Part shown: positions 6,886 to 21,212 of the stretch, in pieces
Layout: every line of letters begins with the position of its first letter
Position numbering within the stretch: the stretch's first letter is position 1
Origin: a virus
Lineage: Duplodnaviria > Heunggongvirae > Uroviricota > Caudoviricetes
Direction: 5' to 3' (one strand)
Length of the DNA stretch: 24,450 bases
IMG/VR virus record: IMGVR_UViG_2534681774_000030
Notes under the pieces: model-generated
Told to the model about the DNA's origin: nothing
The model's input: only the letters and a program-made list of their open reading frames with translations
Database searches by the model: none
Made by a program: the position numbers and the translations under genes

Positions 6886-7018
6886 TTTTTGGGACTCCTG
6901 GCTGATTAAGTATGTCGATAAGGCGTTTCCATCCGTCACGTAATTTACGGGTGATTCGTTCAAGTAAAGATTCGGAAGGGCAGCCAGCAACAGGCCACCC
7001 TGCAATGGCATATTGCAT
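6854..7018 (-). CDS. cIII: Lambda cIII (FtsH inhibitor)
   Basis: Manual translation [54 protein letters not shown] (54 aa); below the ORF-track length cutoff. Confidence 0.9.
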   Translation of the reverse strand: MQYAIAGWPVAGCPSESLLERITRKLRDGWKRLIDILNQPGVPKNGSNNYGYPD

Positions 7019-7090
7019 GGTGTGCTCCTTATTTATACATAACGAAAAACGCCTCGAGTGAAGCGTAATTGGTATGCGGTAACGCCGCGC

Positions 7091-17492: not shown

Positions 17493-17578
17493 GACTCGAA
17501 AGCGTAGCTAAATTTCATTCGCCAAAAAGCCCGATGATGAGCGACTCACTACTGGCCACAGTTTATTGGTTTTCGTAA
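17489..17578 (+). pseudogene. Q: Lambda Q remnant: first 20 codons intact, then divergent sequence and stop after 29 codons
   Basis: [20 protein letters not shown] matches the lambda Q N-terminus, then LLATVYWFS*; ATGA overlap with ninI as in lambda. Confidence 0.8.
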
Positions 17579-17611
17579 CTGAGTCATTTTATTATTTTAT
17601 TGCAACTTTTA

Positions 17612-17703: not shown

Positions 17704-18663
17704 TTAAAAAAAGAAGGTGATTGCTCCATTTATAAATGAATAGTCATCCCCTGTCTTGAATTCTGATGTTACTTTATTAAATGCTAGTGTGAAGGCTACA
17801 GGTGCATACCCAATTGTTGCGCCAACTTGATATTCATCAACAGTTTTGTTTAGCGATACTGTTGTTTGTTTCGTCTGTATTGTTTTTCCTTCGAGAGTAT
17901 AGTTGCGATTGACATCTCGTCTTTCCATACCTGCAAAAATCTTGTATTTGAATCCGCTTGTATCGGACATATGCATTAAACCACGGGGAGCCAGCAGACC
18001 AAAGCCATTATCCGAATTGAAGGTTTTATCATTACCAATGGCAATGGTTGCGCCATATGCTACATATTGAAATAAGTTTCCAGTAACAGCAGAAACTTCA
18101 GGGTATAATCCAACATTAGCACCTAAAATATCCATACTTGGTGTCATGGATAGCATCCCTTTTACAGTATAACCGTAGCGATTCTCTATTTGATCATCCC
18201 ATGCATGATATTTTTCTGCCCCAATAATCTCATGAGCTTTATTTTGTACTTTCTGACCGCCTGCGTCGGGGCCAACAACACCTATGTCAGTACCTAATCG
18301 ATAGCGAATCCAGTCATTCGCAAGGGAGTTCCATTCAATACCAGTGTGAGTGTATGCACTAAAAGCTCTGTCTCCAGTTACGGCTGTGTTGTGTCTTTTA
18401 TTACTGCCTGATGGAGAGTAAATATCTTGCGCAATATGGAGAGATAATTGGCTCGAGTCTGAGATATCGTGGCTATATCCCAGAAATAAGCCTTGTGAGT
18501 AATCATCTCTGTTTTCATGTTTATTGCCATAAATATCATTAAGTATTGGTTGAAACTTCCCTGCATCATCATTTGCTAATGATAATGCAAGGCTGTTCGC
18601 GATAGCTGAACACGTGGTAAATGACAGAGCAATAAAGACGCCAGCGATGACACTTTTTTTCAT
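17704..18663 (-). CDS. Outer-membrane beta-barrel protein (319 aa, signal peptide, C-terminal Phe); possibly LpxR-like lipid A 3'-O-deacylase
   Basis: Signal peptide MKKSVIAGVFIALSFTTCSAIA; alternating amphipathic beta-strand pattern; C-terminus ...AITFFF; the 319-aa size equals what I recall for the Salmonella LpxR precursor; AT-rich flanks. Confidence 0.6.
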   Translation of the reverse strand: MKKSVIAGVFIALSFTTCSAIANSLALSLANDDAGKFQPILNDIYGNKHENRDDYSQGLFLGYSHDISDSSQLSLHIAQDIYSPSGSNKRHNTAVTGDRAFSAYTHTGIEWNSLANDWIRYRLGTDIGVVGPDAGGQKVQNKAHEIIGAEKYHAWDDQIENRYGYTVKGMLSMTPSMDILGANVGLYPEVSAVTGNLFQYVAYGATIAIGNDKTFNSDNGFGLLAPRGLMHMSDTSGFKYKIFAGMERRDVNRNYTLEGKTIQTKQTTVSLNKTVDEYQVGATIGYAPVAFTLAFNKVTSEFKTGDDYSFINGAITFFF

Positions 18664-19138
18664 ATGTTATTGTCTTCCTTTTTTTTGAATGGTGCGCGTA
18701 TTTTACATACATGAGTTTGTAATACAAGGTGCGTAATCAATATGATGTTTTATAATTGCGTGAGACAATTGATTTATTTGTTTTTTATTGTGGTTTTTAT
18801 TATCTTTTAATGTAACGGTGTTTTTATTAAGTGTGTTTGCGTGGTGTTTTATGTTTTTTATAATTTTTATTTTATTAAATTTAAATGCATTAGTAATGGC
18901 TATTCTATATAGCAATATAAGAACTGTTACAAAAAAAGGGGGGGCAATTACAGGTAGTTATGGATGATGAGTGAAACAGATATTGGAGAACCGGGGAATG
19001 AATGATGTCTGAGTCTTATATATCAGAACTCCTTCGCTGTCGCTGGGGGCTCCTGTGCTTATGTCGTTTCCCCGATTCGGTTTTGAACGATTACCGAATG
19101 TTGAAGAATTATGCCAAAATATAGAAAGGATTTACTGC

Positions 19139-19828
19139 ATGAATACCCAATATTTACAGTATGTTCGTGAGCAACTTATGGCAGCTACTGCTGACTTGAA
19201 CGGAGCAACGAAAGGCCAGCTCGAAGCCTGGCAGGAGCATGCACAATTTGATACTGGTACATACAAACGAAAGAAGCCGCGCATTCTGGATGTGGTAACT
19301 GGCAAGATGATTACGCTGGATAATACGCCGACTTCCGGTAAGCAGTCGTACGCAAAAGGTTCATCCATTGCTTTGGTCAGCCCGGTTGAATTCTCAACCT
19401 CTTCATGGCGCCGCGCGGTTTTGTCTCTCGATGAACATCAGAAAGCATGGTTGCTTTGGTGTTACAGCGAAAGCGTTCGATGGGGGCATCAGGTCACCAT
19501 AACGCAATGGGCATGGAGCGAGTTTAAAGATTTGTTAAGTAACAGAAAAATTGCAGGTAAGACACTGGATCGCCTGAAGACGTTAATCTGGCTGGCTGCA
19601 CAGGATGTGAAGAGCGAACTTGCAGGGCGTGAGGCCTATGAATACCAGACACTGGCATCATTGGTGGGAGTGACAACAAAAAACTGGTCCGAGACATTTA
19701 CTGAACGCTGGGTTGCAATGAAGCACATTTTTCTACAGCTTGATAGTGATGCTTTATTGCTTGTGACGAGAACACGTTCAAAACAAAAGGCAGCATTTTT
19801 ACAGCAAAATATTGCAAAACTGGATTAA
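19139..19828 (+). CDS. Candidate late-gene antiterminator Q of a non-lambda (phage 82/Qin-type) family; start may be upstream at 19055
   Basis: About 230-aa ORF in the position between the nin region and the lysis genes, followed within about 50 nt by an intrinsic terminator; the family assignment rests on position and size, not on recognised sequence. Confidence 0.4.
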   Translation: MNTQYLQYVREQLMAATADLNGATKGQLEAWQEHAQFDTGTYKRKKPRILDVVTGKMITLDNTPTSGKQSYAKGSSIALVSPVEFSTSSWRRAVLSLDEHQKAWLLWCYSESVRWGHQVTITQWAWSEFKDLLSNRKIAGKTLDRLKTLIWLAAQDVKSELAGREAYEYQTLASLVGVTTKNWSETFTERWVAMKHIFLQLDSDALLLVTRTRSKQKAAFLQQNIAKLD

Positions 19829-19874
19829 AAGCCATATACTTCATGCAAATTTGGTATGTTGTAAAAAATGTATA

Positions 19875-19900
19875 AACCCGCTGCCGAGTGGGTTTTTTTT
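19875..19900 (+). terminator. Intrinsic terminator (ACCCGC-tgccg-AGTGGGT then T8); candidate tR' ending a short pR' transcript
   Basis: 7-bp stem with one G-U wobble followed by eight T residues, just downstream of the Q-like gene. Confidence 0.6.
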
Positions 19901-20039
19901 ATGCCCTGAGTTGTACTTGTACGGTAAACATGCTGGCTGCTATGTAATAGAGTTTTTTTAGCCTGTAACCTCTTGACGGCATTGAATTGCTTTTGTTATG
20001 AGTTGTAAGCCAATGTTATCATCTTGTATTGGGGTGGTT

Positions 20040-20756
20040 ATGAAGGATGGTGCGCTGCTCAGGAGTTCTTCACTTTTTATTGCCTACATGGGATGCCTTG
20101 GATGGGGGAGTGCTTATTTCTATGGATGGGGTACTTCTTTTTACTACGGCTTCCCATGGTGGATTGTAGGTGCAGGTGTTGATGATGTTGCCAGAAGTTT
20201 ATTTTTTGCAGTTATCGTCATTGCTATATTTCTTATCGGTTGGGGTATTGGTGTTGTATTCTTTTTCGCAGTGAAAAGAAAACATTCTATGCAAGAGCTA
20301 AATGTATTTCGCCTTTATTTTGCTGTGGAATTATTGTTTGTGCCGGCAATTATTGAGTTTTCTATATTGAGACAGAAGATTCAGGTACCTCTTTTGCTAC
20401 TGTCAGCAGCGATTGCGCTGGCGGTTACAATTTCGATAAGATCTTATGGGCGATTTTTATCGGTATCATGCTTCTATGATAAGCCATTTATAAAAAAACA
20501 TTTTTTTGAGATTGTGATGATTGCTTTTGTGGCATATTTTTGGCTTTTTTCATTTCTGACAGGATATTACAAACCACAGTTTAAGAAAGAATATGAAATG
20601 ATTAATTATAATGATGGTTGGTATTATGTTCTTGCTCGTTATGATAATTGTCTGGTTTTGTCTACTTCTTTCAATGCAGGTAGTAAAAGGTTTGTCATTT
20701 ATCAATCAGCACAAGATAAGAATCTTCAGGTTGATATTGTAAGGACCAGAATTTAA
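20040..20756 (+). CDS. Hypothetical polytopic membrane protein (about 238 aa) in the late-operon cargo slot between Q/tR' and nanS-p
   Basis: Start MKDGALL preceded by a GGGGTGG Shine-Dalgarno; Trp/Gly-rich N-terminus (GWGSAYFYGWGTSFYYGFPWWIVGAG) and at least four hydrophobic helices; AT-rich; unrecognised. Confidence 0.55.
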   Translation: MKDGALLRSSSLFIAYMGCLGWGSAYFYGWGTSFYYGFPWWIVGAGVDDVARSLFFAVIVIAIFLIGWGIGVVFFFAVKRKHSMQELNVFRLYFAVELLFVPAIIEFSILRQKIQVPLLLLSAAIALAVTISIRSYGRFLSVSCFYDKPFIKKHFFEIVMIAFVAYFWLFSFLTGYYKPQFKKEYEMINYNDGWYYVLARYDNCLVLSTSFNAGSKRFVIYQSAQDKNLQVDIVRTRI

Positions 20757-20889
20757 TTGGCTGCATAAATAATATTTTAAGTTGCAAGTTGGCTATTCGT
20801 AGGAATAGAACCTTAGGCATGCTGAATGCGTTTTCTGAACATTGTTTTATAAACTGTGTCTGCTTGCTGTTGTGATCCTGCTTTTAGTG

Positions 20890-21000
20890 ATGGTGATGAT
20901 GGATTTCACCAGCAGGATAATGTTGGTACTGACTGATGGCGCTCTGGTCTGCGGCATTGTGGTATTGCTGTGGCCGATGATGAAAGAACAGAATGAATAA
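20890..21000 (+). CDS. Possible small hydrophobic protein (36 aa)
   Basis: Manual translation MVMMDFTSRIMLVLTDGALVCGIVVLLWPMMKEQNE; one predicted transmembrane helix; no clear Shine-Dalgarno. Confidence 0.25.
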   Translation: MVMMDFTSRIMLVLTDGALVCGIVVLLWPMMKEQNE

Positions 21001-21185: not shown

Positions 21186-21212
21186 GGCTGCGCATTGCGC
21201 AGCCTTTTTTTT
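21186..21212 (+). terminator. Strong intrinsic terminator (GGCTGCGC-att-GCGCAGCC then T8)
   Basis: Near-perfect GC-rich stem followed by eight T residues, about 90 nt upstream of nanS-p. Confidence 0.7.

What the first reader, a model, noticed from the sequence alone, without database searches (positions are those of the whole stretch)
19829..19900. Promoter-proximal terminator after the Q-like gene, as in a pR'/qut/tR' unit
An intrinsic terminator sits about 50 nt downstream of the candidate Q gene, the same architecture as the lambda 6S RNA unit. This supports the Q assignment and predicts a short terminated RNA that Q would extend into the downstream cargo and lysis genes. Whether Q is intact matters for expression of everything through R.
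Basis: inference. Interest (0 to 1): 0.4.

Follow-up and report, generated by a model that had tools for sequence, protein, structure and literature searches.

The report
Phage 82-type late promoter and terminator
This is the ordinary late-gene switch of a phage 434-like prophage: a constitutive promoter, a built-in pause site and a strong terminator about 50 bases on, which the intact phage 82-type Q protein overrides to switch on cargo and lysis genes.

Summary
A canonical intrinsic terminator lies 45 nt after the Q stop codon: core stem CCCGCT/AGTGGG at 19877-19892, flanking A/T pairs from 19874, then T8 at 19893-19900.

- Q (19139-19828) is an intact Q82-family protein (PF06323), 89% identical to phage 82 Q.
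- The whole region is 100% identical to phage 434, whose GenBank record already annotates the Q82-like gene and this terminator.
- The promoter -35 (19812-19817) lies inside the last Q codons. The -10 is at 19835-19840 and the inferred start is A19847.
- An extended -10-like pause element, TGgTATGTT, sits at +6..+14, and U is at +25. This register matches phage 82 pR', not lambda pR'.
- The predicted terminated RNA is about 52-54 nt, against 194 nt for lambda 6S RNA.

In 111 unique Q82-family loci this geometry is ungapped. 96 have a terminator within +110, against about 4 in shuffles.

The window belongs to a compact leader class, with the hairpin starting at +28-30. It lacks the GCC at +15-17 that lengthens the pause in phage 82.

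No experiment exists for this exact leader. The unit is ordinary and of low novelty. Separately, the downstream holin gene carries a frameshift.

The parts
19139..19828 (+). Q antiterminator gene, Q82 family, 229 aa, intact
   Evidence: Pfam PF06323, E = 1.1e-91, model 1-216 of 220. 89% aa identity to phage 82 Q from X92588. 100% identical DNA in phage 434 and in more than 600 E. coli genomes.
19812..19817 (+). pR' -35 hexamer TTGCAA, inside the last codons of Q
   Evidence: Promoter scan. Positions -35..-30 are nearly invariant in 63 non-redundant Q82-family loci, although the anchoring pattern partly enforced this.
19818..19834 (+). 17-bp promoter spacer holding the Q stop codon; the position of the Q-binding element (QBE) in phage 82
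   Evidence: PMC4914094 places the QBE between -35 and -10. The first 11 spacer bases are identical to phage 82 X92588, and 14-15 of 17 match 82-like loci. Binding is inferred, not tested.
19835..19840 (+). pR' -10 hexamer TATACT
   Evidence: Promoter scan. The family consensus is TATATT; A-11 is invariant (63/63) and T-7 nearly so (62/63). The window is the only 1 of 63 with C at -8.
19847..19849 (+). Inferred transcription start, AAA (+1 to +3)
   Evidence: Only this register gives 82-like loci an AAA start, GCC at +15-17 and U at +25, as published for 82 pR' in PMC5001585. It lies 7 nt after the -10. Inferred, not mapped.
19852..19860 (+). Sigma-dependent pause element: extended -10-like TGgTATGTT (+6 to +14)
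   Evidence: A at +10 and T at +14 are invariant in 63 of 63 non-redundant family loci, and T+14 was not part of the anchoring pattern. The 82 element is described as an extended -10-like sequence.
19871..19872 (+). Predicted promoter-proximal pause positions +25 (T) and +26 (A)
   Evidence: By register with phage 82, which pauses at +25/+26 with U at +25. T at +25 occurs in 56 of 63 family loci. Inferred.
19874..19900 (+). Intrinsic terminator tR': stem 19874-19895 (G+C core 19877-19892, loop GCCG) and T8 run 19893-19900, i.e. +28 to +54
   Evidence: Annotated as a terminator in phage 434. Hairpin energy is -12.1 kcal/mol with the A/U extension and -8.5 for the core.
19847..19900 (+). Predicted short terminated leader RNA, about 52-54 nt
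   Evidence: Inferred from the start site and the terminator geometry. No Rfam family reaches its gathering score here.
21186..21212 (+). Second strong intrinsic terminator in the late operon, after the moron genes and before the SASA esterase
   Evidence: Annotated as a terminator in phage 434.
23237..23266 (+). Third strong intrinsic terminator, just upstream of the holin gene

Best explanation
This is the late-gene control unit of a phage 434-like lambdoid prophage, built on the phage 82 plan.

1. Sigma-70 RNA polymerase starts constitutively at pR'. The -35 is TTGCAA at 19812-19817, inside the end of the Q gene. The -10 is TATACT at 19835-19840. The start is A19847.
2. Sigma-70 stays on the polymerase and rebinds the extended -10-like TGgTATGTT at +6..+14. 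The polymerase then pauses near +25/+26 (19871-19872).
3. [quoted passage not shown] It releases an RNA of about 52-54 nt at 19898-19900.
4. Q is made from the early rightward transcript. When it accumulates, it binds the promoter spacer (the QBE position) and loads onto the paused polymerase, probably helped by NusA.
5. The Q-modified polymerase reads through this terminator and the two further terminators at 21186 and 23237. It then transcribes the cargo genes (membrane protein 20013-20756, DUF3927, SASA esterase 21299-23152) and the lysis genes.

Shown here: the sequence elements, their register, their family-wide conservation, and identity with a viable phage. Inferred: the start site, the pause, the release point, and Q binding and action.
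For: Q protein:
- Q is PF06323 and full length, and 89% identical to phage 82 Q.

Identity with a viable phage:
- Window 19000-20100 is 100% identical to phage 434 (OL657226.1), a plaque-forming phage. Its record annotates 'Q82-like' and this terminator.

Register with phage 82 pR':
- Published features of 82 pR' are an AAA start, an extended -10-like element, GCC at +15-17 and U at +25/26 pause (PMC5001585).
- Loci whose Q is 97-99% identical to 82 Q fit these features only in one register. That register places the window's start at 19847.

Family survey:
- 111 of 119 unique Q82-family loci from 146 genome and viral contigs share the ungapped geometry.
- A+10 and T+14, the two bases sigma region 2 flips out, are 63 of 63.
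- 96 of 111 have a terminator-like site within +110. Shuffles give 4.2 on average (maximum 9), and Q-coding control windows give 9 of 440.
- At least five unrelated hairpin sequences occupy this position.
- 17 unique sequences place the hairpin at +28-30, as here. Their Q proteins range from 34% to 100% identity to the window's.

This window:
- Its only three strong terminators are all + strand and all lie between Q and the lysis genes.
Against: - No experimental data exist for this exact (434-type) leader. The start, the pause and termination are all inferred by homology.
- The window deviates from the family at conserved positions: C at -8 (1 of 63), G at +8 (1 of 63), and GTA instead of GCC at +15-17, with A at +17 in only 2 of 63.
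- In phage 82, single G/C-to-A changes at +15-17 halve the pause half-life and the triple change cuts it about 5-fold. The pause here may therefore be short, while the terminator begins only 3 nt after it.
- The terminator core has a G-U pair and is modest: -8.5 kcal/mol, against -10.4 for the closest variant and -16.9 for the 82-like hairpin.
- The loose consensus scans are not enriched over shuffles.
- The conservation of the -35, -10 and GATAT positions was partly imposed by the pattern used to anchor the alignment.
Confidence: 0.85

Rival explanations
1. The hairpin is only a gene-end terminator. It stops the early rightward (Q) transcript and insulates the downstream moron genes. The promoter-like and -10-like sequences between Q and the hairpin are not functional.
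For: - It lies directly after the Q stop codon.
- A related terminator (about 79% identity over 60 nt) follows a lambda-type Q in phage SfV, and a decayed copy follows one in phage 2B8. It is therefore not tied to one Q type.
- The loose promoter scan is not enriched over chance.
Against: - The -35, -10, start and -10-like geometry is ungapped in 111 of 119 unique family loci. The sigma-contacted bases A+10 and T+14 are invariant in non-coding DNA.
- In phage 82 this same unit is experimentally a promoter with a pause.
- In SfV and 2B8 the terminator also sits downstream of a lambda-like pR' with a pause element.
- The two roles are not exclusive. Only the 'no promoter' version is a true rival.
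Confidence: 0.04
2. The unit works as described, and in addition the short leader RNA is a trans-acting regulatory RNA in lysogens. It would resemble StxS, the Hfq-binding RNA made by early termination at pR' in Shiga-toxin phages.
For: - StxS shows that pR'-terminated RNAs can be Hfq-binding regulators. Its authors suggest that other lambdoid leaders, including that of phage 82, may be too (PMC7547250).
- The predicted RNA has an A/U-rich single-stranded 5' part and a G+C hairpin with a U8 tail.
- The identical sequence is in at least 618 complete E. coli genomes.
Against: - No Rfam family reaches threshold. The sub-threshold STnc240 match is to an unrelated chromosomal locus.
- The +15..+27 segment is poorly conserved across the family, which argues against a conserved seed.
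- No expression or Hfq-binding data were found for this locus.
Confidence: 0.1
3. The elements are present, but the unit is a decaying remnant in a defective prophage. The pause element is weakened (GTA at +15-17, C at -8), so Q no longer loads efficiently.
For: - The window is an outlier at four conserved positions.
- The holin gene downstream is frameshifted.
- Many E. coli copies, for example in O157:H7, sit in deleted prophages.
Against: - Exactly the same sequence, outlier positions included, is in wild-type phage 434. That phage was propagated lytically for sequencing.
- Other compact-class leaders have GTC at +15-17.
- Q itself is intact.
Confidence: 0.04

Closest known systems
Phage 434 late control region (GenBank OL657226.1; Feiss et al. 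2022, PMC9119081)
   Same: 100% identical DNA over window 19000-20100. This covers Q, the promoter, the leader and the terminator. The record annotates 'Q82-like' and the terminator at the same bases.
   Different: - Nothing differs in the unit itself.
- The 434 record does not annotate pR', the start site or the pause element.
- The window diverges from 434 only after about 23506, where it carries a different lysis cassette.
Phage 82 pR'-QBE-pause-terminator unit (Roberts and Hochschild laboratories; PMC5001585, PMC4914094)
   Same: - Same Q family, with 89% identity.
- Same promoter position overlapping the end of Q.
- Same 17-bp spacer, nearly identical in sequence.
- AAA start, extended -10-like element at +6..+14, and T at +25.
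   Different: - +15-17 is GTA, not GCC.
- DNA homology to 82-like leaders ends at about +15.
- The terminator hairpin starts at +28 instead of about +50. The RNA is therefore about 53 nt rather than about 80 nt.
- The hairpin spanning the pause site seen in 82-like leaders is absent.
Lambda pR'/qut/tR' unit and 6S RNA
   Same: Same logic: a constitutive late promoter just after Q, a sigma-70-dependent promoter-proximal pause, a QBE in the promoter spacer, a terminator, and a short RNA in lysogens.
   Different: - An unrelated Q family, PF03589 against PF06323.
- The lambda pause is at +16/17 with a different pause element.
- Lambda 6S RNA is 194 nt against about 53 nt here.
- The lambda promoter does not overlap the Q reading frame in the same way.
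Stx-phage pR'-tR' leader, StxS (PMC7547250)
   Same: A short RNA made by constitutive early termination downstream of an antiterminated late promoter in E. coli prophages.
   Different: StxS derives from a 258-nt transcript processed to 74 nt, and has shown Hfq binding and targets. No sequence relationship to, or function for, the RNA here has been shown.

Membership tests
Phage 82-type (Q82 family) late control unit | Antiterminator protein of Pfam family PF06323 | tested here: met
   E = 1.1e-91, model positions 1-216 of 220. 89% identity to phage 82 Q.
Phage 82-type (Q82 family) late control unit | Sigma-70 promoter overlapping the 3' end of Q, with a 17-bp spacer and an AAA start | tested here: met
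   TTGCAA-17-TATACT at 19812-19840. The alignment with 111 family loci is ungapped. The AAA start of 82 is stated in PMC5001585. Promoter activity itself was not tested.
Phage 82-type (Q82 family) late control unit | Q-binding element between -35 and -10 | tested here: inconclusive
   The spacer is identical to phage 82 over the 11 bases available and matches 82-like loci at 14-15 of 17. Part of it is coding and stop codon, so its conservation is ambiguous. The QBE sequence itself was not available in any held text.
Phage 82-type (Q82 family) late control unit | Extended -10-like pause-inducing element at about +6..+14 in the transcribed region | tested here: met
   TGgTATGTT at 19852-19860. 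A+10 and T+14 are invariant in 63 of 63 loci. Described for phage 82.
Phage 82-type (Q82 family) late control unit | G+C-rich segment (GCC) at +15-17 that sets and stabilises the +25 pause | tested here: not met
   The window has GTA. C at +17 occurs in 60 of 63 family loci. The effect of this segment in phage 82 is given.
Phage 82-type (Q82 family) late control unit | Pyrimidine (U) at the +25 pause end | tested here: met
   T at 19871. T at +25 occurs in 56 of 63 loci. The preference U > C > A > G is reported.
Phage 82-type (Q82 family) late control unit | Intrinsic terminator a short distance downstream of the pause | tested here: met
   19874-19900. 96 of 111 family leaders have one within +110, against about 4 in shuffles.
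Phage 82-type (Q82 family) late control unit | Sigma-dependent pausing at +25 and Q-dependent (NusA-stimulated) read-through | not testable with these tools
   Needs in vitro transcription or in vivo end mapping.
Lambda pR'/qut/tR' (6S RNA) unit | Lambda-type Q protein (PF03589) | tested here: not met
   Only PF06323 matches. A truncated lambda-type Q remnant is annotated upstream at about 17498-17587 in the 434 and O157 records.
Lambda pR'/qut/tR' (6S RNA) unit | Pause element at +1..+9 (AACGATGGG), pause at +16/17, and a terminated RNA of about 194 nt | tested here: not met
   Here the element is at +6..+14 and the predicted RNA is about 53 nt. The lambda-like element is seen instead in SfV, and in a more diverged form in 2B8.
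Described small-RNA families (Rfam 15) | Match at or above a family's gathering score | tested here: not met
   The best hit is STnc240 at 28 bits against a gathering score of 55. STnc240 is an unrelated chromosomal locus.

The most novel reading that the evidence does not exclude
The leader RNA of about 53 nt would be made constitutively from pR' in lysogens. It is present unchanged in phage 434 and in more than 600 complete E. coli genomes, including O157:H7. The novel reading is that this RNA is itself a trans-acting, Hfq-binding regulator of host or prophage genes, as StxS is for Shiga-toxin phages, rather than a mere by-product. A related open point concerns the compact 434-type leader. 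It has no GCC at +15-17 and its terminator starts 3 nt after the pause. It may therefore work with a much shorter pause than phage 82, which would bear on how Q82-type proteins load.
Probability: 0.1. Interest if true: 0.5.

Novelty: already known. Interest (0 to 1): 0.15.

Why it matters
The result confirms that the gene at 19139-19828 is a working-type Q. It also shows that late and lysis expression in this prophage depends on antitermination through three terminators. This is textbook lambdoid biology, and the same sequence is already deposited and annotated as phage 434.

Two modest points of value came from the survey.
- Q82-family leaders fall into a compact class and a long class.
- The 434-type leader lacks the G+C-rich element that phage 82 work found important for the pause.

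Both are cheap to test in a system for which no Q82-family structure is yet in the PDB copy searched.

Tried and rejected
- **Rfam.** Nothing reaches a gathering score in the leader. The sub-threshold STnc240 hit (28 bits against 55) was checked in two papers. STnc240 is a chromosomal yeeY-yoeI locus at 2.83 Mb in EDL933, unrelated to this prophage.
- **Printed phage 82 pR' sequence.** I looked for it to fix the register directly. No paper in the library holds the sequence strings. The supplements of the two key papers are not held, and two older papers are not held. The register therefore rests on the published descriptors (AAA start, GCC at +15-17, U at +25) matched to loci whose Q is 97-99% identical to 82 Q.
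- **PDB.** No solved relative of this Q was found. I did not model the structure because it does not bear on the terminator.
- **Weak 5' hairpin in the window's leader.** The predicted hairpin at +8..+27 appears in only a few compact-class leaders, so I dropped it.
- **Antisense CII-dependent promoter ('paQ').** The TTGC-N6-TTGC box at 19804-19817 on the minus strand is annotated as paQ in the 434 record. It lacks a credible -10 at the usual distance, and its second half-site is not conserved across the family. I did not pursue it.
- **EHEC prophage small-RNA papers.** The EcOnc, HnrS and StxS papers give no data for this locus.
- **Loose consensus scans.** They are not enriched over shuffles and were not used as evidence on their own.

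Full report
**What is there**

Reading 18900-20700 shows the ORF 19139-19828, then 45 nt, then AAACCCGCTGCCGAGTGGGTTT followed by more T. The consensus scan reports this as a terminator-like site: stem 19874-19895, 9 pairs, loop GCCG. The G+C core is CCCGCT/AGTGGG (19877-19892) with one G-U pair, and the T-run is eight T (19893-19900).

The same scan finds one promoter-like site between the gene and the hairpin: TTGCAA (19812-19817), 17 bp, TATACT (19835-19840). The loose scans are not enriched over shuffles (11 against 12.9 promoters, 7 against 6.7 terminators), so on their own they prove nothing.

A stricter test is decisive. It requires a stem of at least 6 pairs, at least 4 G-C pairs and a T-run of at least 7.
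- The whole 24-kb window has only three such sites, all on the + strand.
- All three lie between this gene and the lysis genes (19877, 21186, 23237).
- Dinucleotide shuffles give 0.02 sites per window.

The predicted leader RNA folds at -15.3 kcal/mol (z = -3.4; 0 of 200 shuffles fold as well).

**Where the window comes from**

The window is a phage 434-like lambdoid prophage of E. coli.
- It is 99.3% identical to phage 434 (OL657226.1) over 1331-23506.
- The 1.1 kb around the finding is 100% identical to 434. It is at least 99% identical in 628 of 5,426 complete E. coli genomes, and the top-listed hits, including O157:H7, O26, O103 and O145 strains, are 100% identical.
- The 434 record annotates the gene as 'Q82-like' antiterminator. 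It annotates a terminator at bases that map to window 19877-19902.

**The Q gene**

The 229-aa product matches Pfam PF06323 end to end (E = 1e-91). This is the Q82 family, one of three unrelated Q families (PMC9388147). It is 89% identical to phage 82 Q. It is intact. No solved structure matches it.

**Fixing the register**

The phage 82 record ends at the Q stop codon, and no held paper prints the leader. I therefore used the published descriptors of 82 pR':
- a wild-type AAA start;
- an extended -10-like pause element;
- GCC at +15-17;
- pauses at +25/+26 with U at +25;
- a QBE between -35 and -10 (PMC5001585 and PMC4914094).

Loci whose Q is 97-99% identical to 82 Q read TTGCAA-17-TATATT-N6-AAATCTGATATTTTGCCAATGTTGTA. 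Only a start at the first A of AAA gives GCC at +15-17 and T at +25.

The window aligns to these loci without gaps. This puts its elements as follows:
- start at A19847;
- TGgTATGTT at +6..+14 (19852-19860);
- T at +25 (19871);
- the hairpin at +28..+49;
- the T-run at +47..+54.

The predicted terminated RNA is about 52-54 nt.

**Family survey**

I collected 146 loci encoding Q82-family proteins from bacterial genomes and viral contigs. They gave 119 unique Q-end and leader sequences.
- 111 share the ungapped geometry.
- In 63 non-redundant sequences, A+10 and T+14 are invariant. These correspond to the -11 and -7 positions, the most conserved bases of a -10 hexamer. T+14 was not part of my anchoring pattern.
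- C+17 is 60 of 63 and T+25 is 56 of 63.
- 96 of 111 have a terminator-like site within +110. Shuffled leaders give 4.2 on average (maximum 9), and Q-coding control windows give 9 of 440.
- The hairpins at this position belong to at least five unrelated sequence types. So the position is conserved, not just one sequence.

The leaders fall into two classes.
- **Compact class:** the hairpin starts at +28-30. There are 17 unique sequences, including the window/434, phage Flotzy, and loci from Kluyvera, Superficieibacter, Izhakiella and Pantoea. Their Q proteins are 34-100% identical to the window's.
- **Long class:** the hairpin starts at +43-55. There are 75 unique sequences, including the 82-like ones.

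DNA homology between the window and 82-like loci stops at about +15. From about +29 the window instead matches the terminator region that follows lambda-type Q genes in SfV and, in decayed form, 2B8. So the Q, promoter and pause element travel as one module, and the terminator and cargo travel as another.

**How the window departs from the family**

- It has C at -8 (1 of 63) and G at +8 (1 of 63).
- It has GTA at +15-17, with T+16 in 5 of 63 and A+17 in 2 of 63.
- In phage 82, single G/C-to-A changes at +15-17 roughly halve the pause half-life (45 s to 22-25 s), and the triple change gives 8 s.
- By inference the pause here may be shorter, and the terminator begins only 3 nt beyond it.
- The terminator core also carries a G-U pair where the closest variant has G-C (-8.5 against -10.4 kcal/mol).

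Because the identical sequence serves a viable phage (434), these are variations, not defects.

**Mechanism**

Polymerase initiates constitutively at pR' and pauses at +25 under sigma-70 control. Without Q it terminates at about +52-54. With Q bound at the spacer and loaded at the pause, it reads through this terminator and the two at 21186 and 23237. It then expresses the cargo (membrane protein 20013-20756, DUF3927 at 20842-21000, SASA esterase 21299-23152) and the lysis genes.

The sequence anatomy, register and conservation are shown. The start, the pause, the release site and Q action are inferred from phage 82.

**Rivals**

- A pure gene-end terminator with no promoter is contradicted by the invariant pause-element bases in non-coding DNA, and by the phage 82 experiments.
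- A decayed unit is contradicted by identity with phage 434.
- A regulatory role for the short RNA, in the manner of StxS (PMC7547250), is not excluded but has no support. No Rfam family fits, the STnc240 near-hit is unrelated, and the +15..+27 segment is poorly conserved.

**Verdict**

The feature is already known and ordinary.

Noticed in passing
window 23302-23518 (C-run at 23396-23400): The class II holin gene S is frameshifted. The window has five C where the holin of Stx2 phage 86 has four, and the two are otherwise identical over 241 nt. The N-terminal half (MYQMEKITT...LLDRVSP) and the C-terminal half ([10 protein letters not shown]...KAARGE*) are in different frames. This is either a real pseudogene, which would make the prophage lysis-defective whatever Q does, or a homopolymer sequencing error.
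   Followed up: yes
loci L008-L153, leader positions +11 to +39 (absent in the window): In the long (82-like) leader class a hairpin pairs about +11..+19, including the GCC at +15-17, with about +30..+39. The +25 pause site sits in its loop. The arms differ between subtypes in a compensatory way: UGCCA/UGGCA, GCUGCC/GGCGGC, UUUUGCC/GGCAAAA, GCCAA/UUGGC, GUCG/CGAC. The stems are 7-12 bp and rare in shuffles for some subtypes, but only 4-6 bp and not significant for others. I could not establish whether this is already described for phage 82.
   Followed up: partly
window 19804-19817, minus strand: An exact CII-box TTGCAATATTTTGC overlaps the pR' -35. The hexamer TTGCAA is its own reverse complement. 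The phage 434 record annotates it as paQ. All five TTGC-N6-TTGC matches in the window are on the minus strand (1.9 expected), and two are the known pI and pRE sites. This one has no credible -10 at the usual distance, and its second half-site is not conserved in the family.
   Followed up: partly
window 21186-21212 and 23237-23266: These are two further strong intrinsic terminators on the + strand inside the late operon. One follows the moron genes and one lies just before the holin. Together with tR' they are the only three strong terminators in the 24-kb window.
   Followed up: yes
window about 17498-17587, and 17704-18663 (minus strand): A short N-terminal remnant of a lambda-type Q gene follows ninI. 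Next comes an lpxR (lipid A deacylase) moron on the opposite strand, and then ylcG and the Q82-type Q. This is a mosaic joint where one Q type replaced another. It is annotated this way in the phage 434 and O157:H7 records.
   Followed up: partly
window 19993-20022: A promoter-like TTGTTA-18-TATCAT with a TG extension lies just upstream of the membrane-protein gene (20013-20756). It could be a moron promoter active in lysogens, independent of Q. It rests on the consensus match only.
   Followed up: no
loci L074-L086 against window 19893-19900: Among otherwise identical 434-type copies, the tR' T-run varies in length by two, from one T shorter to one T longer than the window's eight. One copy has TATATT instead of TATGTT in the pause element.
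   Followed up: no
window 6973-7031, minus strand: Rfam Lambda_thermo (the cIII thermoregulator) matches at 88.5 bits. It is the only Rfam family above threshold in the window, and there are no tRNA genes.
   Followed up: no
window 19139-19828 (protein): No chain in the 2026 PDB copy matches this Q82-family protein at E <= 0.01. This is consistent with the 2022 statement that the family's mechanism is still open.
   Followed up: no
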